From Acidimicrobiia bacterium (GTDB taxonomy: Bacteria; Actinomycetota; Acidimicrobiia; Spongiisociales; ZC4RG35), in the NCBI GenBank assembly GCA_035544575.1, contig DATKEC010000044.1:2851-66850 (forward strand): a stretch of 64,000 bases of DNA. Reading direction: 5' to 3'. Of the stretch, positions 8,114-18,497 are shown piece after piece; position 1 is the stretch's first letter, and each line of letters opens with the position of its first letter. The position numbers were made by a program, and so were the translations under genes. The notes beneath the pieces are model-generated. The model was not told the origin of the DNA. It worked only from the letters and a program-made list of their open reading frames with translations, and did not search any database.

Positions 8114-9904
8114 ATGCCCTCAGGCCAACAGCCGACCATCAGCACTCTCGTCCGCTTCAGAGCGGCCGCTCTCCGCCGTAGCGTGATGCTCGGTTGGGTG
8201 CTCCTCGTCGTGCTGACGGCAGCCGCGGTACGTACCGACACCTTTCCGGACCGGCGATTCCTCGTCACCGTCGCGATCTTCTTGGTGATCCTGTCACTGG
8301 CGAGCGGCACGGACTGGTCGCGGGTCCTCCGGAAGCCGTACGGGCCGCTGCTGGCGTGGGCGTGGACCATTGCCTTGGTTCTCACTCTCACCGTGATCGC
8401 CACGGTCGAGGGCATGTTCCAGGCGACCCTCCCGATCTTCCCGGGCATCGTGGTGCTCACCGGTCTCATACTCGAACCCGTCCGCCACGTCTTCGTCTCG
8501 GTGCTCACCGCCTTCCTGGTGATCATCGCGGCCTTGGTGACAGCCGAAGCCGACACGTTCGCCGATCTCGTGATTCCCGTCCTGACGATCGGGGTGGTGG
8601 CCGCGGCAACCGCCCTCATCGGCACCGAGTTCGCTCGCGAGGCAAAGATGTCAGCGGCGCAACAAGAAGCCCTCTCCAGCCAGCGCGAGGACTTCCGGCG
8701 CCTGTACGCCGTCTCCACGACACTCGCCGGTGCGGAGTCTCTCGCCGAGGGTCTCCCCGAGATCGTCGGGCGAATCTGTCGCTATGTCGATGCCCAGGTC
8801 GGGGTGGTCTTCCTGTATCGGCCCGAAGACCACACCCTTCGTGTCGTGAGCCCGATGTGGGTGAACGGCCACACCCTCGAAGTCGATGAGATCACCGTGC
8901 GCGTCACGGACGGCAGCATCGTCACCAAGGTCTTCCGCAGCGGAAGGGCGATCCGTTTGGAGCGGATCTTGCAGCGACCCGATCAGTTCGGTGTGCTCGG
9001 AGAACTCGGCATCGACAATGCCATCGTCGCCCCACTCCGCGTCGAGGGCCACAACGTCGGTGTCCTCGCCATCGGCGACCCTGCTGGCGACCCGTTCACC
9101 GATGGCCAGGTGGAGGACGTCTCCTCTTTGGCCGCCCCGGCCGCTTTGGTGCTGTCTCAACTCGGCCGATACGAGGCAGCGGCCGAGATGACCCGGCGCA
9201 TGCGAGAAGTGGCGCAGATGAAGACGGACTTCGTGTCGGTCGTGAGCCACGAGCTGCGCACGCCGCTCACTTCCATCATCGGATCACTCGACACGATCAA
9301 GCGTCCGGGCATCGGCCCCGAAGCAACCGAGGACTTGCTGGAATCGGCTCGCCGTCAAGCCAACCGGTTGCAGAGGCTGATCGAGGATCTCCTGTTTGCG
9401 TCCCGCGTCGACCGTCAAACGATCCCGATCTCGATCCAGCCGGTGCTCGTGCGGGACATGCTCTCCGAGCTCGAGACCACCCATTCCACCAGCCCCCACC
9501 TGAGGATCTCCGTCGAGCCGGTGGACCTGATGGTGGCCGCGGATCCCGACCACCTCCGTCGAGTCTTCATCAATCTCGTGGACAACGCCTCCAAGTACGC
9601 GCCGGACAGCCCGGTCGAAGTCATCGCCCGTGCGGTTCGGTCTCGGATCGACATCGACGTGATCGATCACGGAGACGGGATACCGCCGGAGATGCGGGCG
9701 CGCATCTTCGACGCCTTCACACAACTCGAACGGTCTGAAACCCGCACCAAGGGCGGGACGGGCCTCGGTCTGTCGATCGTGCGCGGGCTGGTCGAGGCGA
9801 TGGGGGGCCAGGTGGTCGTGACTGAGACGCCCGGTGGAGGAGCGACATTCACCATCAGCCTCCCGATGGCTGCCGTCGCCCCCGACCTCATTCCGCTGGC
9901 GTGA
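8114..9904 (+). CDS. Membrane sensor histidine kinase with GAF domain
   Basis: ~5-6 TM segments, GAF-like middle region, SHELRTPL H-box, NLVDNASKY, DHGDGI, GTGLGL. Confidence 0.92.
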   Translation: MPSGQQPTISTLVRFRAAALRRSVMLGWVLLVVLTAAAVRTDTFPDRRFLVTVAIFLVILSLASGTDWSRVLRKPYGPLLAWAWTIALVLTLTVIATVEGMFQATLPIFPGIVVLTGLILEPVRHVFVSVLTAFLVIIAALVTAEADTFADLVIPVLTIGVVAAATALIGTEFAREAKMSAAQQEALSSQREDFRRLYAVSTTLAGAESLAEGLPEIVGRICRYVDAQVGVVFLYRPEDHTLRVVSPMWVNGHTLEVDEITVRVTDGSIVTKVFRSGRAIRLERILQRPDQFGVLGELGIDNAIVAPLRVEGHNVGVLAIGDPAGDPFTDGQVEDVSSLAAPAALVLSQLGRYEAAAEMTRRMREVAQMKTDFVSVVSHELRTPLTSIIGSLDTIKRPGIGPEATEDLLESARRQANRLQRLIEDLLFASRVDRQTIPISIQPVLVRDMLSELETTHSTSPHLRISVEPVDLMVAADPDHLRRVFINLVDNASKYAPDSPVEVIARAVRSRIDIDVIDHGDGIPPEMRARIFDAFTQLERSETRTKGGTGLGLSIVRGLVEAMGGQVVVTETPGGGATFTISLPMAAVAPDLIPLA

Positions 9905-11481: not shown

Positions 11482-12075
11482 TCATCCGTCGAGAAGTCTG
11501 CGCTTCTGGCTCTCGAACTCTTCCTGGCTGAGAATTCCCCGGTCACGGAGTTCGGCCAGTCCGGCGAGCTCGTCGGCAACCGACGATCCACCCCGGCGGA
11601 GTTCCACGGTGCGTTGCTCTCGTTGCTGGTAGATCAACGATTGGAGACCCTCAGGGTCGGGGATGTCCTGGTAGCGGCTCTGGCCCGTCTCACCGGCCGA
11701 CTCGATGACGAGATCGCCTGAGCGGATGAACCGTTCGAGCAGCGATTGACTGAACGCCACGTTCGTGATGCTCTCGAGCGGGATCTCGACACCCGAACGC
11801 GAGAACACACCCGCCCGATAGATCACTCGCTCGTCGGTGATCACGTATTGGGTGGTCGCCCAGTCGGCGACGCGTTTGACGCTGAGGATGATCCAGACGG
11901 CGACCCCGCCCAGAATCAGCAGCCACCGAGCGGCTCCATCGAGCTGGACGACCGCGGCGACGACCACCCCCAGGAGCACCAGGAACAACGCTCCGGGAAG
12001 AATGAGGAACTGCCAGTGGGGCCGAAACTCCTTGACGACCATCTCACCGGGACTCAACAACCGTTTCGGATACAT
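11482..12075 (-). CDS. PH-domain (bPH_2) membrane protein with C-terminal SHOCT
   Basis: MYPKRLLSPGE..RPHW, 2 TM, YVITDERVIYRAGVFSR, IPLESITNV, SHOCT-like DRGILSQEEFESQKRRLL. Leaderless TAGCGT-N7-ATG. Confidence 0.88.
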   Translation of the reverse strand: MYPKRLLSPGEMVVKEFRPHWQFLILPGALFLVLLGVVVAAVVQLDGAARWLLILGGVAVWIILSVKRVADWATTQYVITDERVIYRAGVFSRSGVEIPLESITNVAFSQSLLERFIRSGDLVIESAGETGQSRYQDIPDPEGLQSLIYQQREQRTVELRRGGSSVADELAGLAELRDRGILSQEEFESQKRRLLDG

Positions 12076-12151
12076 GCTCGGGACGCTAGCGGGAGGCACG
12101 TGTCCCGCGACGACGAAGCGCCATCCTCGTGCCGAACCGGCAGATCCAGAC

Positions 12152-12571
12152 GCGAAGAAGCCCCGAGGAAGCTTTGGCTTGCGCCGCCACCCTCTCGGGG
12201 CTCTCCGAGTCATCGGTGCCGCGACCCGTTTCCGGGCCGGCTGCAGCCGAGACAAGCGAGGAATCTTGCGACTCCCCACGTGACGGCCGGTTTCGTCGCC
12301 GAAGCGTCGACCCGTTCCGCCAGACCGCTGAACCGACAGCGAAGCTCGAAACCCGAAGATCCTCACTCACGCCCTCGGCTCAAAGGCCGTTGCGTCTCAA
12401 CCCCCGCCGAAGCGAAGGCCTCAGACGCCCCTCGTACGAGGATGGTGCATCGGTTCCCCGATCCACCCGGAAGCGTCGTTTCCGACCCATCCGTGGTGCG
12501 GACCGCCGACCACGTTCGTCGCCGTCCCGCTCGACCCCTTTCGAGGCCGTGCCACCGATCGCTCGGTGACA
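12152..12571 (-). ncRNA. Putative ~420-nt structured ncRNA (RNA-B), unassigned family
   Basis: About 11 hairpins capped by GNRA/UUCG loops, readable as such only on the minus strand; long-range closing helices; own promoter; 3' hairpin followed by CUUCUUC. Ends are estimates. Confidence 0.72.
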
Positions 12572-12577
12572 GGTGGA

Positions 12578-12654
12578 AAGCTAAACGGTGGGCCAACGAT
12601 CGGGAACCGAATCAGGTCGCCATTTTTTCGCGACGCTCGGTGAGTTTTCGCGAC
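12578..12654 (-). promoter_or_regulatory. Promoter P2 for RNA-B plus upstream direct repeats
   Basis: TTCCCG (12606-12601)-N17-TAGCTT (12583-12578). GTCGCGAAAA twice, at 12625-12634 and 12645-12654. Confidence 0.55.
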
Positions 12655-12711
12655 AAGTCGCTGGTGGCTGGGGAACGCGGCGAGACGCTCATGACCGGGA
12701 CCCCCGAACGC

Positions 12712-12860
12712 GGGAAACCCCGAGAAAGTATCGGCCGAAGCCTCAACCCTCTCGGGGTACCCTGCTGGTCGCACTCCGACCCGAAGGCCGGTCTACACCC
12801 AGCTTCCGAAGGACCCTCTCGGGTTCTTCATCCCTGCTGCGAGGTCGCCCTCGCTTCAGT
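12712..12860 (-). ncRNA. Putative ~150-nt structured ncRNA (RNA-A), short paralog of RNA-B
   Basis: Starts ~7 nt after a strong -10. Hairpins GCGAGG-GCGA-CCUCGC, CCC-GAGA-GGG, CCGGCC-UUCG-GGUCGG. 40-nt 3' domain is 30/40 identical to that of RNA-B. Confidence 0.7.
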
Positions 12861-12867
12861 GATCGGA

Positions 12868-12943
12868 AACCTACGGTCTGATCCGGGTGACGTCAAGGCG
12901 AACAGACGGTGTCTTTTCGCGGTCCGGAGGGAAGTTTCGCGAC
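12868..12943 (-). promoter_or_regulatory. Promoter P1 for RNA-A plus upstream direct repeats
   Basis: TTGACG (12896-12891)-N17-TAGGTT (12873-12868). Repeats ACCGCGAAAA and GTCGCGAAAC at 12914-12923 and 12934-12943. Confidence 0.72.
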
Positions 12944-12944
12944 T

Positions 12945-13784
12945 TCAGCTCGCCACGGCGATCCCCGCGTCTTCGAAGGCGGGACAGATCGCCTGAAACG
13001 AGCACCAATCGCACAGTCGGCCGGGACGCGGCGGAAACCGCTCCTCGCTCATCGCCCGCTCGATGGCGCTCCACAGAGCCCGCAGCTGGCGGTCCATGGC
13101 GTCGAGCTGCTGGTCATCGACCTCGAGGCGGTACATGGTGGGCCCGTTGAGGTACATGAGCCGTAGCTCCCGCGGCGTTTCGCCGGTGCGGCGCCGAACG
13201 AGCAACCCGTAGATCTTCAACGCAAAGAACGCCGGAACCGCGTAACGCTCGGGAGGCGCCTTGCCCGTCTTGTAGTCGGTGATCACCAGCCGACCGTCGG
13301 CACCTCGATCGATCCGATCCAGAATTCCCCGGATGACGATGCCGTCGAGATCCTCGGTCATGTCGAGTTCTCGATCCATCGGCTCGACCTCTGCGGGGTT
13401 CTCCACCGAGAAGTAATTGGCGAGCAGCGTCAGACTCTCCAGGCCCCACTCACGCTCATGGTCGACGGATGCGAACAAGCCGGAGTACTCCTCGTCGGCA
13501 CGCACTTCTGTCCACGCCTGCCGGAAGAGGTCATACAGCATCTCGGGCGTACGCTCGTTGGCATCGAGGTCGAAGAGCCGCTGCAGCGCCAGATGCGCCG
13601 TCGTCCCCCGGGCCTGATAGGCGGTCACCGGCTCTGGGAGCCGGTCGATGCTGCGGAACTTGAACAACTGCGGACAGATCTTGAAATCACTCGCCCGCGA
13701 CGGCGAAAGCCTCTCCAACGACAGGCCCTCCCCGGCCGGTGGCGCAGTCGCCCGGCTGGCGATCGACAGATTCCCAGACTCCAT
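12945..13784 (-). CDS. RecB-family PD-(D/E)XK exonuclease with 4-Cys Fe-S staple
   Basis: LSPSRASDFKICP, RGILDRID, ITDYKTGK, QL-like ALKIYG, LCDWCSFQAICP. Leaderless TAGGGT-N6-ATG. Confidence 0.92.
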   Translation of the reverse strand: MESGNLSIASRATAPPAGEGLSLERLSPSRASDFKICPQLFKFRSIDRLPEPVTAYQARGTTAHLALQRLFDLDANERTPEMLYDLFRQAWTEVRADEEYSGLFASVDHEREWGLESLTLLANYFSVENPAEVEPMDRELDMTEDLDGIVIRGILDRIDRGADGRLVITDYKTGKAPPERYAVPAFFALKIYGLLVRRRTGETPRELRLMYLNGPTMYRLEVDDQQLDAMDRQLRALWSAIERAMSEERFPPRPGRLCDWCSFQAICPAFEDAGIAVAS

Positions 13785-15506: not shown

Positions 15507-18497
15507 TTGTCGACCGTCGTGAGCACCGAGGTACGAATCGGCCCCGATGAGTGGCCGGCGGTGGTCGCCGACACCGACGGGCCTCAGTTGGTGGTGGCTG
15601 GGCCGGGGACGGGCAAAACCGAGTTCTTGGTCCGTCGCATCGTCCATCTGATCGAGTCCGGTGTCGAACCCAGGGCGATCCTCGTGCTCACGTTCTCTCG
15701 CCGGGGGGCGGCGGAGTTGCGAAGCCGGATCTCGAATCGGCTGGCGCGCTCGGCGGGACCCCTCTCGGTGTCGACTTTCCACTCCCTGGCCATCCGTCTG
15801 CTCGAGACCTACGAGGAGCGGCCGACGACGCGGCCTCCACCAACGTTGCTGACAGGACCAGAGCAGGTTTCGCTGGTCGCAGAGCTGCTGGCCGACACGG
15901 ATCCGGCACCGTGGCCCGTCTCGCACCGAGCGATGTTCCGAACGCGCACGTTCGCCGCCGATGTCGCCGACTTCCTCCTGCGCATGGCCGAGCGCAGGAT
16001 CGACTCGGACCGCCTCACAGAGATGGTCCACCGGCGCCCGGATTGGCGTGCCCTACCGGACTTCCGTGATCGCTATCTGCAGACGCTGTCGGAGCGAAAC
16101 CGCGTCGACTACGGAACACTGCTGTCGCGCGCCGTCGACCTGGCGGCGGACCCGGCGGTGTCAGGCCGGCTCCAGACCGACCACCGCTATGTCGTGGTGG
16201 ACGAGTATCAGGACACCTCCCCCGCCCAGGCCGAGCTGCTCGACGTTCTCACGCGAACCCATCGGAACCTGACCGTCGCCGGTGATCCACACCAGTCCAT
16301 CTACAGCTTCCGCGGCGCCGATGTCTCCAACATCGCCCGGTTCTCCGAACGCTTCGTCGGAGTCGACGGGAGTCCCGCCCGACGGATCGTCCTGGACGCC
16401 TCGTTCCGGGTGCCTGCCGCCATCCTCGCCGCGGCGACCCGCGTGACCGCGGGTGCGGGGCTCCCGGGTGAAGCCGGCCCGATCGCACCGGCGCCGCACT
16501 CGGGGTCCGTTCACGTGCATGTCTTCGACCAGGCCTCGGCGGAGGGCGAGTGGGTGGCAGCCGAAGTCGAGAGGCTTCACCTCGTCGAACAGATCCCCTA
16601 CCGGCGCATGGCGGTGCTCGTGCGGTCCACGCGCAACCTCCTCCCGGAGCTGTCAAGGGCCCTCGACCGTCGTCACATCCCCCACGACACACCCGACGTC
16701 CGTCTCGTGGACCATCCCGCCGTCCAACTGATCCTCGACCTGGCCCTCGCTGCCGCCACCGCCTCGTCGGAGGACCCGCTGACCCGCCAGGCCGCCGAGG
16801 CACCGATCCGGCGTGTCCTCCTCGGTCCTCTGTACGGTCTGGGTGTTGCGGCTGAACGAGCGCTGCAGCGGAACCGCTTGCGAACGGACGCGGGTTGGGT
16901 CGAGGCACTCTCGGGCGACCCCGCCACCGCCGACCTGGCCCGGTTGCTGACCGGCGGCGCCTGGGCCACCGAAGCCAGCGCCGTCGACGGGTTCTGGCGG
17001 GTCTGGAACGACCTCGATCGGTTGAGCGCGTTCGCCCTCGAACCGGGCCGGCACGGACATCGCGCGGCGTGGACGGCATTCGCGCAAGTCCTCGAACAGC
17101 AGCATGAGCGCAATCCGGAAGTGAGCCTTCTCCGCTACCGCCAGATGGCCGAGTCCGACGACTTCGAGGCGACTCCTCTGCTCTCGCATCGGACCACCAA
17201 CGACGAACGGATCACACTGACCACGCTGCACCAGGCCAAAGGCCTCGAATTCGACGTCGTGTTCATCGCCGACGCCACCGAAGACGTGTTTCCGGACCTC
17301 CGGCGCGGATTCAATCCGCTCGACCCTCAGGCGCTGGCCGGGCCGGCCGACCGCTCGTCGTGGCTCTTGGAACGCTTGCGCGAGGAGACACGTGTCGCGT
17401 ACACGGCGATGACCAGGGCACGGGCGCGACTTGTCATGACCGCCACCATCGCCGGGATCGACGAGAACGAGCGCCGGCCCAGTCGATTTCTCCTCGCGGC
17501 CGCCGGCGTGGATTCGGTCGACGAGCTCCCGCCCGCACCCTCCAACCGGGATGATCCGCTGACCACGCGGGGCCTCGAGACGGTGCTTCGGCGAGCCCTG
17601 CTCGACCCCCTCCGACCGATGGCGGAACGACTGGCGGCGGCCGCCACATTGGCCGAAGGGTCGCCCGCCTTGTGGGACGCCGAACGTTTCGCCGGCGTTC
17701 GCCAGCCCGGGCCGGATCGCGGCGTGTTCAGCCGACCTCCTCGTCTGTCGCCGAGCCAGGCAGAGTCGTATCAGGAGTGCCCCCGCCGATACGTGTTCGA
17801 GAGGCGCCTGGCGATGACGGACTCCTCGGGAGATCACGCCCGGTTTGGGACCCTGGTCCATGGCGTTCTCGAGCGCGCCGACAACGCGGCGAAGGCGGAG
17901 GCACGACCCCGGCCGACTCTCGGCGACGCCCACGCGGCTCTCGACGACGTGTGGCGAACGGAGGCCGATTTCGGCTCGCCGTGGCTCGACGCGCTCTGGC
18001 GTGGCAAAGCGATCGAACTCCTCGATCGGCTGTTCGCCCAATGGCCCGGAGACAGCCTCGAGACGATCGCCGCCGAACTGAACCTCCACTGGAACGGCGG
18101 TGGGGTCGAGTGGGTTGGCCGCGCCGACAGAATCGAGCGACTCACGGACGGATCGGTCCGAGTGGTCGATTACAAGACGTCGAAGACGATCATGCCCAAG
18201 CACAAGGCGGCGCGTTCGCTCCAACTCGCGTTCTACGCGCTGGCCGCCACCGCCGATCCGGCGATACCGGGACCCGTCGACAGCGCAGAGCTGTGGTATC
18301 CCGCCACCGGACAGGTCGGGTTCCGCCGCTCACTGGACATGTCTCTCCTCGATGAGCTCCGATCCGTTCTCGAGTCCATCGCCGGGTCGATCACGGACGA
18401 GCGGTGGGAGCCGACACCCGGGGAGGCGTGCGATCGATGCTCGGTGCGCATCGTGTGTCCCGAATGGCCCGAAGGCCGAGCCGGGTTCACGGGATGA
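15507..18497 (+). CDS. adnA: AdnA-like UvrD helicase-nuclease subunit (start may be GTG 15519)
   Basis: AGPGTGKT, VDEYQD, GDPHQSIYSFRGA, TLHQAKGLEF, YTAMTRAR. C-terminal GRADRIE..VVDYKT with CP...CDRC...CP. Confidence 0.88.
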   Translation: MSTVVSTEVRIGPDEWPAVVADTDGPQLVVAGPGTGKTEFLVRRIVHLIESGVEPRAILVLTFSRRGAAELRSRISNRLARSAGPLSVSTFHSLAIRLLETYEERPTTRPPPTLLTGPEQVSLVAELLADTDPAPWPVSHRAMFRTRTFAADVADFLLRMAERRIDSDRLTEMVHRRPDWRALPDFRDRYLQTLSERNRVDYGTLLSRAVDLAADPAVSGRLQTDHRYVVVDEYQDTSPAQAELLDVLTRTHRNLTVAGDPHQSIYSFRGADVSNIARFSERFVGVDGSPARRIVLDASFRVPAAILAAATRVTAGAGLPGEAGPIAPAPHSGSVHVHVFDQASAEGEWVAAEVERLHLVEQIPYRRMAVLVRSTRNLLPELSRALDRRHIPHDTPDVRLVDHPAVQLILDLALAAATASSEDPLTRQAAEAPIRRVLLGPLYGLGVAAERALQRNRLRTDAGWVEALSGDPATADLARLLTGGAWATEASAVDGFWRVWNDLDRLSAFALEPGRHGHRAAWTAFAQVLEQQHERNPEVSLLRYRQMAESDDFEATPLLSHRTTNDERITLTTLHQAKGLEFDVVFIADATEDVFPDLRRGFNPLDPQALAGPADRSSWLLERLREETRVAYTAMTRARARLVMTATIAGIDENERRPSRFLLAAAGVDSVDELPPAPSNRDDPLTTRGLETVLRRALLDPLRPMAERLAAAATLAEGSPALWDAERFAGVRQPGPDRGVFSRPPRLSPSQAESYQECPRRYVFERRLAMTDSSGDHARFGTLVHGVLERADNAAKAEARPRPTLGDAHAALDDVWRTEADFGSPWLDALWRGKAIELLDRLFAQWPGDSLETIAAELNLHWNGGGVEWVGRADRIERLTDGSVRVVDYKTSKTIMPKHKAARSLQLAFYALAATADPAIPGPVDSAELWYPATGQVGFRRSLDMSLLDELRSVLESIAGSITDERWEPTPGEACDRCSVRIVCPEWPEGRAGFTG

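What the first reader, a model, noticed from the sequence alone, without database searches (positions are those of the whole stretch)
12578..12943. Both RNA promoters share an identical upstream architecture (unknown regulator site)
Seen: P1 is TTGACG-N17-TAGGTT and P2 is TTCCCG-N17-TAGCTT. At 18-19 nt upstream of each -35 sits a pair of (G/A)(T/C)CGCGAAA(A/C) direct repeats exactly 20 bp apart (12914/12934 and 12625/12645). Inference: co-regulation of the two RNAs by one activator, or phased UP-like elements. This supports them as independent, co-regulated genes.
Basis: partly seen in the sequence, partly recalled or inferred. Interest (0 to 1): 0.7.

Follow-up and report, generated by a model that had tools for sequence, protein, structure and literature searches.

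The report
Twin upstream boxes of sRNA promoters
Two neighbouring small-RNA genes of an uncultured soil actinobacterium (class Acidimicrobiia) each carry the same pair of CGCGAAAA boxes at a fixed distance upstream of their promoters; the arrangement is kept at this locus in roughly two hundred related sequences, so it is very likely a real control element, but what binds it is unknown.

Summary
On the minus strand, two CGCGAAA(A/C) boxes lie exactly 20 bp apart, 17-18 nt upstream of the -35 position of two promoter-like sites. The pairing is far beyond chance: 2 found, 0.00 expected.

It is also conserved. In Acidimicrobiia loci fetched only through the neighbouring nuclease gene, 47 promoter-oriented double boxes occur in 337 kb, all upstream of structured sRNA genes. 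There are none in 350 kb from other Actinomycetota. A metagenome scan that asked only for the proximal box plus -35/-10 returned mostly this same locus, and 61 of 97 non-redundant GC-rich hits carried the unrequested distal box exactly 20 bp upstream. The box-to--35 spacer is 17 nt in 195 of 197 promoters.

Promoters with a weak or absent -35 (the RNA2 type) almost always have both boxes. The window's "TTCCCG" -35 is not conserved; the boxes and the -10 are. Metatranscriptome contigs cover the RNA bodies at very high depth but not the promoter region.

Best reading: a position-locked, positive-acting upstream element, probably the site of a dedicated sequence-specific activator. Direct contact by the RNA polymerase alpha C-terminal domain (alpha-CTD), as at an UP element, is the main rival. 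The binding partner and the transcription start sites (TSSs) are untested.

The parts
12934..12943 (-). P1 distal box GTCGCGAAAC (core CGCGAAAC 12941->12934)
   Evidence: Invariant GTCGCGAAA in the 7-sequence orthologue alignment. Present in about 45-65% of RNA1-type promoters elsewhere.
12914..12923 (-). P1 proximal box ACCGCGAAAA (core CGCGAAAA 12921->12914), 17 nt upstream of the -35
   Evidence: Invariant. Present upstream of all 17 RNA1 homologues that were located by RNA homology alone.
12891..12896 (-). P1 -35 hexamer TTGACG
   Evidence: CTTGACG is invariant. TTGACG is the commonest -35 in the family.
12868..12873 (-). P1 -10 hexamer TAGGTT (TANNTT type), 17-nt spacer
12706..12861 (-). 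RNA1, short structured sRNA (about 155 nt; TSS inferred near 12860-12863), ending in the terminator hairpin 12765-12710
   Evidence: Fold z-score -5.65. Terminator-like site. Compensatory changes in the 5' hairpin and at the terminator base in 17 homologues. No Rfam family.
12644..12654 (-). P2 distal box GTCGCGAAAAC (core CGCGAAAA 12652->12645)
   Evidence: CGCGAAA is invariant. A distal box is present in 31 of 32 weak-(-35) promoters of the unbiased loci.
12623..12634 (-). P2 proximal box GTCGCGAAAAAA (core CGCGAAAA 12632->12625)
   Evidence: Conserved. Consensus of the RNA2-type proximal unit is GgTCGCGAAAA.cAatca.
12601..12606 (-). P2 nominal -35 'TTCCCG': the position is right but the sequence is not conserved (weak or absent -35)
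   Evidence: This stretch is variable in the alignment. Other lineages have TTGTCA, TTGCCT and similar at the same distance.
12578..12583 (-). P2 -10 hexamer TAGCTT
   Evidence: TA.CTT conserved. The family consensus is gTCTACTTT.
12150..12571 (-). RNA2, long structured sRNA (about 420 nt; TSS inferred near 12570-12574), ending in the terminator hairpin 12200-12157
   Evidence: Fold z-score -7.05. Its terminator resembles that of RNA1 (family D1, z 6.9). Metatranscriptome contigs cover 12154-12551 and none covers 12556-12707. Word depth is up to about 10^4-10^5 in run X28.
12945..13784 (-). Flanking gene: PD-(D/E)XK nuclease (279 aa). Its stop codon abuts the P1 distal box.
   Evidence: Pfam PF12705, E 2.9e-36. 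Syntenic with the sRNA locus in Acidimicrobiia, in either orientation.
11482..12078 (-). Flanking gene: bPH_2 + SHOCT membrane protein (198 aa), downstream of RNA2 and co-oriented with it.
   Evidence: Pfam PF03703 and PF09851. Linked to the RNA cluster in 23 of the first 37 loci and about 40 metagenome loci.

Best explanation
The CGCGAAAA boxes are a conserved, position-locked upstream promoter element shared by two independent, tandem sRNA genes (RNA1, RNA2) at one locus of Acidimicrobiia.

Anatomy. Each unit is asymmetric and bipartite: (T)CGCG, then AAAA, then nCAA. One or two units sit head-to-tail 20-21 bp apart, which is two helical turns and so the same DNA face. The proximal unit ends 17 nt upstream of the -35 position. 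The cores therefore lie at about -60 to -53 and -80 to -73.

Proposed mechanism (inferred). The units are bound by a dedicated sequence-specific DNA-binding protein, one protomer per unit. From that face it contacts RNA polymerase, probably through alpha-CTD in the class-I manner, and drives very strong transcription. Two units are needed where the -35 is weak or missing (RNA2). One unit can suffice with a consensus TTGACG (RNA1). Both RNAs would then be switched together.

Shown here: the element's existence, its conservation, its fixed geometry, its restriction to this locus in the sample searched, and high abundance of the RNAs.

Inferred only: positive action, the protein partner and co-regulation.
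For: 1. The pairing is not chance: 2 found, 0.00 expected.
2. Unbiased loci fetched through the nuclease gene hold 50 double-box matches in 337 kb. Forty-seven are promoter-oriented and 3 are reverse-strand readings of the palindromic TTCGCGAA. Other Actinomycetota give 0 in 350 kb.
3. All 17 RNA1 homologues located by RNA homology alone carry the proximal box at the same place.
4. Among close relatives, the boxes, the -10 and the RNA bodies are invariant islands. The spacers and the P2 -35 region are scrambled, and the stretch between the RNA1 terminator and P2 cannot be aligned. P1 and P2 are not otherwise similar (z 2.5). So this is selection, not a recent duplication.
5. Geometry: the box-to--35 spacer is 17 nt in 195 of 197 promoters, and box-to-box spacing is 20 (97 cases) or 21 (43 cases).
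6. The metagenome scan asked only for the proximal box plus TTGACG plus TANNTT. Of 125 matches, 96 lie at this locus and 69 of those have the distal box. Of the 29 others, 3 have it.
7. A weak -35 goes with two boxes: 31 of 32, against 14 of 32 for TTGAC (Fisher p 3.5e-6).
8. CGCG is as invariant as the A-tract. Extra conserved positions (C+9, A+10, A+11) lie one helical turn from the CGCG core.
9. RNA2-like contigs are very abundant in metatranscriptomes and stop before the promoter.
Against: - No binding protein was identified, and no DNA-binding regulator gene lies beside the locus.
- No TSS or expression data exist for this organism. The RNA evidence comes from contigs of relatives.
- In degenerate distal boxes the A-tract survives slightly better than CGCG. 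That fits a DNA-shape or alpha-CTD reading as well.
- The link between box number and -35 strength is confounded by RNA1 versus RNA2 ancestry.
Other regulon members, or rRNA promoters with different hexamers, cannot be excluded.
Confidence: 0.55

Rival explanations
1. UP-like element. The A-rich stretch that starts in each box (AAAAnCAAtca, about -56 to -46, and again about 20 bp upstream) is contacted directly by the alpha-CTDs of RNA polymerase, or it bends the upstream DNA around the enzyme. No extra protein is involved, and CGCG is only a favoured 5' flank of the A-tract.
For: The proximal A-rich patch falls where the distal UP subsite of E. coli lies (-57 to -47; own knowledge). In a genome of about 65-70% GC, 8 of 11 A/T is conspicuous. 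The distance to the core promoter is strictly fixed. The boxes compensate for a weak -35. The RNAs are extremely abundant, like products of UP-containing stable-RNA promoters. Degenerate distal boxes keep the A-tract.
Against: Eight consecutive base pairs including CGCG are nearly invariant across a class-level clade, whereas UP elements are degenerate and A/T-only. There is no A/T-rich proximal subsite at -46 to -38. The module was found only at this locus. The sole rRNA-linked hit has a 16S gene that looks deltaproteobacterial (my reading) and a single box. Alpha-CTD contacts at about -75 normally need help.
Confidence: 0.27
2. Operator for a repressor, or a nucleation site for a nucleoid-associated protein, that silences these very strong promoters under some conditions (for example growth phase) by oligomerising or looping from phased sites.
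For: Phased direct repeats on one DNA face. The P1 core hexamers are near consensus and might need damping. Growth-phase control is known for 6S and Ms1-type abundant sRNAs (PMC4191392).
Against: The sites lie wholly upstream of -50 and do not overlap the core promoter. Promoters with the weakest or no -35 always keep both boxes, the opposite of what a pure repressor site predicts.
Confidence: 0.1
3. Neutral relic. RNA1 and RNA2 arose by tandem duplication of one gene with its promoter, and the boxes are leftover similarity without function.
For: The two terminators are clearly homologous (family D1, z 6.9), so the genes are likely paralogues.
Against: Outside the boxes the two promoter regions have diverged to background (z 2.5). 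The boxes and their spacing persist in loci whose nuclease is only 62-76% identical.
Confidence: 0.03
4. The boxes serve the neighbouring protein gene, as a terminator or 3' signal of the nuclease gene or as a divergent nuclease promoter, not the RNAs.
For: In the window the P1 distal box begins one base after the nuclease stop codon. In most relatives the nuclease is transcribed divergently from the P1 region.
Against: The P2 boxes lie about 290 bp away, behind RNA1, with no link to the nuclease. The boxes keep their distance to the RNA promoter whichever way the nuclease points.
Confidence: 0.02

Closest known systems
UP element of strong stable-RNA promoters (E. coli rrnB P1), bound by the alpha-CTD of RNA polymerase
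   Same: An upstream, position-locked, A-tract-containing element that boosts promoters for very abundant non-coding RNAs. The proximal box's A-rich part overlaps the position of the distal UP subsite.
   Different: An invariant CGCG core. A second copy about 20 bp further upstream. No A/T-rich proximal subsite. Found only at one sRNA locus, with no rRNA promoter of this clade among the hits.
Upstream activating sites dedicated to sRNA genes and shared by paralogous sRNAs: GacA/UvrY boxes of rsmY/rsmZ/csrB, LuxO sites of the qrr genes (own knowledge)
   Same: The logic: the same upstream site in front of each of several related sRNA genes, and a target set that may consist essentially of those sRNA genes.
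   Different: The sequence is unrelated (the GacA box is a palindrome TGTAAG-N6-CTTACA, and LuxO works with sigma-54). Here the units are asymmetric direct repeats in front of a sigma-A-type -10. No regulator is known.
Asymmetric direct-repeat sites of AraC/XylS-MarA-type activators (half-sites about 21 bp apart; a monomer touches two successive major grooves across an A/T-rich minor groove)
   Same: Asymmetric units of about 16-17 bp. A head-to-tail repeat every 20-21 bp. Two conserved blocks (CGCG and CAA) about one turn apart with an A-tract between them.
   Different: The proximal unit does not abut or overlap the -35 (17 nt from the core box, about 8-10 nt from the extended unit). No such protein was identified. 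This resemblance is a lead from memory, not a test.
Promoters of RNA-polymerase-binding sRNAs of Actinobacteria (Ms1/MTS2823, scr3559) and 6S RNA
   Same: Very abundant structured sRNAs of Actinomycetota driven by sigma-A-like promoters. A PH-domain gene is among the flanking-gene annotations listed for Ms1 intergenic regions after the Cellulomonas search step (PMC9130861, Table 3 and supplement), as it flanks RNA2 here.
   Different: Only -35/-10 conservation is reported for Ms1 (PMC4191392). Ms1 is not reported in Acidimicrobiia (PMC9130861, Table 4). RNA1 and RNA2 show no similarity to S. coelicolor Ms1 and no Rfam 6S hit. The predicted fold of RNA2 is a string of hairpins, not a rod with a bubble.

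Membership tests
UP element (alpha-CTD site) | A/T-rich sequence between about -40 and -60 with proximal (-46 to -38) and/or distal (-57 to -47) subsites | tested here: inconclusive
   An A-rich patch AAAAnCAAtca lies at about -56 to -46, the distal-subsite position. There is no A/T enrichment at the proximal-subsite position apart from one conserved T.
UP element (alpha-CTD site) | Degenerate A/T-only consensus without G/C-specific positions | tested here: not met
   CGCG is invariant in the orthologue alignment. It is 69-80% conserved even in the unselected distal box.
UP element (alpha-CTD site) | Acts through direct alpha-CTD contact with no other protein | not testable with these tools
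   Needs in vitro transcription with wild-type and alpha-CTD-deleted RNA polymerase.
UP element (alpha-CTD site) | Typical of rRNA, tRNA and other strong promoters of the same organism | tested here: inconclusive
   Of 125 metagenome matches, 96 are at the sRNA locus. The one rRNA-linked match looks deltaproteobacterial and has a single box. The scan was truncated and tied to TTGACG/TANNTT, and no whole genome was scanned.
Class I activator site (CRP-type) | Site centred upstream of -50 on the polymerase-facing side, at a helically phased position | tested here: met
   Cores are centred near -56.5 and -76.5/-77.5. The spacer is fixed at 17 nt in 195 of 197 promoters and box spacing is 20-21 bp. 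TSS positions are inferred.
Class I activator site (CRP-type) | Inverted-repeat site for a symmetric dimer | tested here: not met
   The units are asymmetric direct repeats. The T that would complete the TCGCGA palindrome is not conserved in RNA1-type proximal boxes.
AraC/XylS-MarA-type direct-repeat sites | Asymmetric 17-20-bp units repeated head-to-tail about 21 bp apart | tested here: met
   Unit consensus gGTCGCGAAAAnCAAtca. Spacing is 20 in 97 promoters and 21 in 43.
AraC/XylS-MarA-type direct-repeat sites | Promoter-proximal unit adjoins or overlaps the -35 | tested here: not met
   17 nt separate the core box from the -35.
AraC/XylS-MarA-type direct-repeat sites | A cognate regulator of that family is present | not tested
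   No regulator gene was found next to the locus. No genome-wide search was possible.
sRNA-dedicated upstream activating site (GacA-rsmY/Z, LuxO-qrr logic) | The same site upstream of each paralogous sRNA gene | tested here: met
   Both promoters here and in nearly all orthologous loci carry it.
sRNA-dedicated upstream activating site (GacA-rsmY/Z, LuxO-qrr logic) | Targets restricted to the sRNA genes | tested here: inconclusive
   No double box occurs outside the cluster in 337 kb. In the metagenome sample all but 3 double boxes fall in loci assigned to the sRNA locus, and those 3 sit on short contigs of 1.2-3.5 kb. No complete genome was scanned.
sRNA-dedicated upstream activating site (GacA-rsmY/Z, LuxO-qrr logic) | Sequence of the known boxes (GacA palindrome; LuxO site with a sigma-54 promoter) | tested here: not met
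   The motif is CGCGAAAA in direct repeat with a TANNTT -10.
Ms1 / 6S RNA genes | Sequence or structure match of the downstream RNA to Ms1 or 6S | tested here: not met
   No Rfam hit, 6S included, even at E<=10. No similarity to the S. coelicolor Ms1 sequence from the PMC9130861 supplement (z about -1).

The most novel reading that the evidence does not exclude
The boxes are the operator of a still unknown master regulator whose direct targets are essentially only RNA1 and RNA2. This would be an actinobacterial counterpart of GacA-RsmY/Z or LuxO-Qrr. The RNAs, among the most abundant transcripts of Acidimicrobiia in soil and ice, would act as global regulators (protein sponges, or polymerase-binding RNAs filling the 6S/Ms1 niche).
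Probability: 0.25. Interest if true: 0.8.

Novelty: new member of a known kind. Interest (0 to 1): 0.6.

Why it matters
Acidimicrobiia are abundant in soils, sediments, freshwater and ice, and little is known about how they regulate their genes. I found no paper describing this motif or these RNAs.

This work gives a sharply defined, experimentally tractable cis-element: an 8-bp invariant core at fixed geometry. It sits in front of two unannotated sRNAs that reach very high levels in metatranscriptomes.

- It is a ready bait for DNA pull-down to find the regulator.
- It is a specific signature for locating these sRNA genes in MAGs (metagenome-assembled genomes). The promoter pattern alone recovered the locus in about 96 of 125 metagenome hits.
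- It offers a test case for whether high-GC actinobacteria use UP-like elements or dedicated activators for their strongest promoters.

Tried and rejected
- **Rfam.** At gathering score on the whole window, at E<=10 on 11800-13200, and on 37 related loci, no family matched the RNAs.
- **Generic promoter scan.** It flags neither promoter, because it uses E. coli hexamer rules. This is not evidence against them.
- **Ms1 or 6S identity.** No sequence similarity to S. coelicolor Ms1. The only link is the PH-domain flank (PMC9130861).
- **Reaching Ms1 loci of other orders.** I searched homologues of the PH protein for this purpose. The 120 proteins listed are 56-97% identical to the query, and the few that carry a source name are all labelled Acidimicrobiia. 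The search did yield close relatives for footprinting.
- **Literature search for the octamer.** It returned primers and an E. coli NagC site only. A search on Acidimicrobiia non-coding RNAs gave nothing relevant.
- **rRNA link.** The one box-plus-16S hit (L181/L084) has a 16S gene that looks deltaproteobacterial and a single A-rich box. I treat it as chance or analogy.
- **Other runs.** X3 and X10 behave like DNA (even depth across genes and spacer). X35 and X36 gave only one or two contigs. None helps with TSSs.
- **Known actinobacterial motifs.** The RecA-NDp/PafBC motif and the LexA box were compared by eye with the box and P2 sequences. Neither spacing nor sequence fits (own knowledge).
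- **Viral-contig control.** The double box plus TTG gave 9 hits, none at the sRNA locus: no nuclease or PH-gene neighbour and no RNA1/RNA2 homology.

Full report
**What is in the window**

The finding lies on the minus strand of an 866-nt non-coding stretch (12079-12944). Upstream is a PD-(D/E)XK nuclease gene (12945-13784). Downstream is a gene for a bPH_2 + SHOCT membrane protein (11482-12078).

Reading 5'->3' on the minus strand, the layout is:
- P1: GTCGCGAAAC (12943-12934), 10 nt, ACCGCGAAAA (12923-12914), 17 nt, TTGACG, 17 nt, TAGGTT.
- A structured RNA of about 155 nt ending in a terminator hairpin (12765-12710).
- A spacer.
- P2: GTCGCGAAAAC (12654-12644), GTCGCGAAAAAA (12634-12623), 18 nt after the CGCGAAAA core, TTCCCG, 17 nt, TAGCTT.
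- A structured RNA of about 420 nt ending in a similar hairpin (12200-12157).

The box-to--35 gap is 17-18 nt rather than 18-19.

**Is it chance?**

The octamer alone is not enriched in the 64-kb window: 6 found, 5.5 expected. But four of the six are here.
- The paired form CGCGAAA-N13-CGCGAAA occurs twice against 0.00 expected.
- The box followed by TTS... and TANNNT at promoter spacing occurs twice against 0.01 expected.
- A control scan of the viral-contig collection for the double box plus TTG gave nine hits. None had a nuclease or PH-gene neighbour or any RNA1/RNA2 homology.

**Whose DNA is it, and is the element conserved?**

The nuclease protein retrieved 80 loci from species-representative genomes. 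L001-L037 have nucleases 65-86% identical to the query, and most are labelled Acidimicrobiia MAGs. L038-L080 have nucleases 37-45% identical and come mostly from other Actinomycetota.
- L001-L037 were chosen without reference to the boxes. In them plus the window there are 50 double-box matches in 337 kb. Forty-seven are in promoter orientation and 3 are the palindromic TTCGCGAA read from the other strand.
- Every one of the 47 is followed at fixed distance by -35/-10-like hexamers and a GC-rich, hairpin-rich non-coding sequence.
- The 350 kb of L038-L080 contain no double box.
- All 17 RNA1 homologues that nhmmer aligned from their 5' end carry CGCGAAA(A) at the same upstream position.

Seven sequences share the window's gene order: window, L201, L205, L207, L208, L001 and L002. 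Their alignment gives a clean footprint.
- Invariant: GTCGCGAAA, CGCGAAAAGA.A.CGTC, CTTGACG, TA..TT and the RNA1 body.
- Then comes an unalignable stretch after the RNA1 terminator.
- Invariant again: CGCGAAA, (T/C)CGCG-AAA, the -10 (TA.CTT) and much of the RNA2 body.
- The P2 '-35' region differs in every lineage (TTCCCG, GTGCCC, ATCCCC and others).

Outside the boxes the P1 and P2 regions of the window are no more alike than shuffled sequence (z 2.5), whereas the two terminators are clearly homologous (z 6.9). So the shared architecture is maintained by selection. It is not a trace of a recent duplication.

**How wide, and how specific?**

The one metagenome scan asked only for CGCGAAAA-N17-TTGACG-N17/18-TANNTT.
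- Among 97 non-redundant GC-rich matches, 61 carry an unrequested CGCGAA exactly 20 bp upstream and 4 more at 21 bp.
- Of all 125 matches, 96 are at the same locus, judged by a nuclease or PH-gene orthologue on the contig or by RNA homology. Sixty-nine of those have the distal box.
- Only 3 of the 29 unassigned matches have the distal box, and these are on short contigs of 1.2-3.5 kb.
- The downstream sequences fall into several sequence clusters. The members that share a contig with the nuclease gene sit next to it, so they appear to be divergent versions of RNA1.
- None matches an Rfam family.
- The one match upstream of a 16S rRNA gene (L181/L084) has a single box, and its 16S 5' region looks deltaproteobacterial to me. 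I count it as chance or analogy.

**Geometry and grammar**

These figures come from 197 non-redundant promoters.
- The spacer from CGCGAAAA to the -35 position is 17 nt in 195 and 18 nt in 2.
- Box-to-box spacing is 20 bp in 97, 21 bp in 43, and there is no second box in 57.
- The -35 to -10 spacer is 17 or 18 nt. The -10 is always TANNTT-like.
- In the unbiased loci, promoters with a TTGAC -35 (mostly RNA1) have one box 18 times and two boxes 14 times.
- Promoters with a non-consensus or absent -35 (RNA2 type, plus the window's P2) have two boxes in 31 of 32 (Fisher p 3.5e-6). These cases are not phylogenetically independent.
- The unit extends beyond the octamer. The RNA2-type proximal unit reads G-g-T-CGCGAAAA-n-C-A-A-t-c-a, with A at +10 in 52 of 56 and C at +9 in 41 of 56.
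- RNA1-type promoters add T-A-R just upstream of the proximal box and a T six bases before the -35.
- The CGCG centre and the CAA centre are about 9 bp apart, one helical turn, with the A-tract between them.

**Are these RNA genes, and are they expressed?**

- Both RNAs fold far better than shuffles: z -5.65 and -7.05.
- Seventeen RNA1 homologues show compensatory changes in the 5' hairpin and at the terminator base.
- Metatranscriptome contigs from soil, sediment and ice cover RNA2 (12154-12551) and the RNA1 3' hairpin. None covers 12556-12707 or the P1 region.
- On the relative L001 the RNA2 core reaches word depths of about 6,000-90,000 in the ice run X28. One X28 contig there runs 35 nt beyond its aligned part; compared by eye with the closest relative (L205), it begins about 17-18 nt downstream of the predicted start.
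- These contigs come from relatives, and contig ends are not TSS maps. They fit the predicted starts without proving them.

**Mechanism**

Shown:
- A cis-element under strong purifying selection.
- It is locked in distance and helical face to the core promoter.
- It is present at both of two independent sRNA genes and, as far as sampled, nowhere else.
- It is doubled where the -35 is weak.

Inferred: it acts positively by recruiting RNA polymerase.

I favour a dedicated sequence-specific protein bound to each asymmetric unit (confidence about 0.55) for three reasons:
- Eight consecutive base pairs including CGCG are nearly invariant across a class.
- The unit has a second conserved block one helical turn away.
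- The module is locus-specific.

The main rival (about 0.27) is direct alpha-CTD contact or intrinsic bending, as at an UP element. The A-rich part sits where the distal UP subsite lies in E. coli, and degenerate distal boxes keep the A-tract. A repressor or nucleoid-protein site (about 0.1) fits poorly with the weakest promoters always keeping both boxes. A neutral relic, or a signal serving the nuclease gene, is contradicted by the data.

**Comparison with known systems**

- The element works like an upstream activating sequence. The closest logic is the shared upstream site of paralogous sRNA genes (GacA-rsmY/Z, LuxO-qrr).
- The closest anatomy is the roughly 21-bp head-to-tail repeat of AraC/XylS-MarA-type sites.
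- The closest position is the distal UP subsite.
- It fails at least one defining feature of each, so I file it under none of them.
- The Ms1 literature reports only conserved -35/-10 hexamers and lists no Acidimicrobiia (PMC4191392, PMC9130861).
- I found no description of this motif.

**Verdict**

The shared functional element and the independence of the two genes hold. The activator, co-expression and TSSs remain untested. The P2 '-35' is not a real conserved hexamer. This is a new cis-regulatory motif of a familiar kind, attached to two unannotated and very abundant sRNAs.

Noticed in passing
window 12706-12861 (-) and 12150-12571 (-): RNA1 and RNA2 are structured sRNAs with no Rfam 15 family and no similarity to S. 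coelicolor Ms1. RNA2-like contigs reach word depths of about 10^4-10^5 in an ice metatranscriptome, so this looks like an undescribed, very abundant sRNA pair of Acidimicrobiia.
   Followed up: partly
window 11482-13784; loci L002-L037, L081-L200: Conserved synteny: PD-(D/E)XK nuclease | RNA1 | RNA2 | bPH_2+SHOCT membrane protein. The RNAs are co-oriented with the PH gene wherever I inspected them, while the nuclease gene occurs in either orientation. A PH-domain gene is also among the flanking-gene annotations listed for Ms1 intergenic regions (PMC9130861).
   Followed up: partly
L024 (box promoters at 1376, 1064, 444 on -), L017, L034, L028: Some relatives carry three or more box-type promoters, or two nearly identical RNA1 copies in tandem (L028). 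The sRNA array expands and contracts between lineages.
   Followed up: no
L001 about 810-1100; L207/L208 between the RNA2 terminator and the PH gene: Repeated G/C-rich elements of similar motif (…GTGCAGGGGGCGCGAGCCCCCCGGCACCCCCC… in L001; a related …GGGGGGTCGCCCCCCTGCAC… in L207/L208) are inserted downstream of RNA2. They look like a small REP/MITE-like repeat.
   Followed up: no
window 15507-18497 (+) and 8114-9904 (+): A UvrD-helicase + PD-(D/E)XK fusion (AdnA/B-like) and an orphan GAF-HisKA-HATPase histidine kinase lie near the locus. The kinase sits in the same place in L207/L208. No response regulator or other DNA-binding gene was seen beside the sRNA genes.
   Followed up: no
L181 2894-3116 (same promoter in L084): A single CGCGAAAAAAAG box with TTGACG-N17-TAACTT lies about 160 nt upstream of a 16S rRNA gene whose 5' region looks deltaproteobacterial. 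This is probably an ordinary A-tract UP-like element or chance, not the Acidimicrobiia module.
   Followed up: partly
window 11746-12996 (+) and 11482-12366 (-): Long ORFs (416 aa; a GTG-extended 294 aa) run straight across the RNA genes. They are high-GC artefacts that could be mis-annotated as proteins.
   Followed up: no
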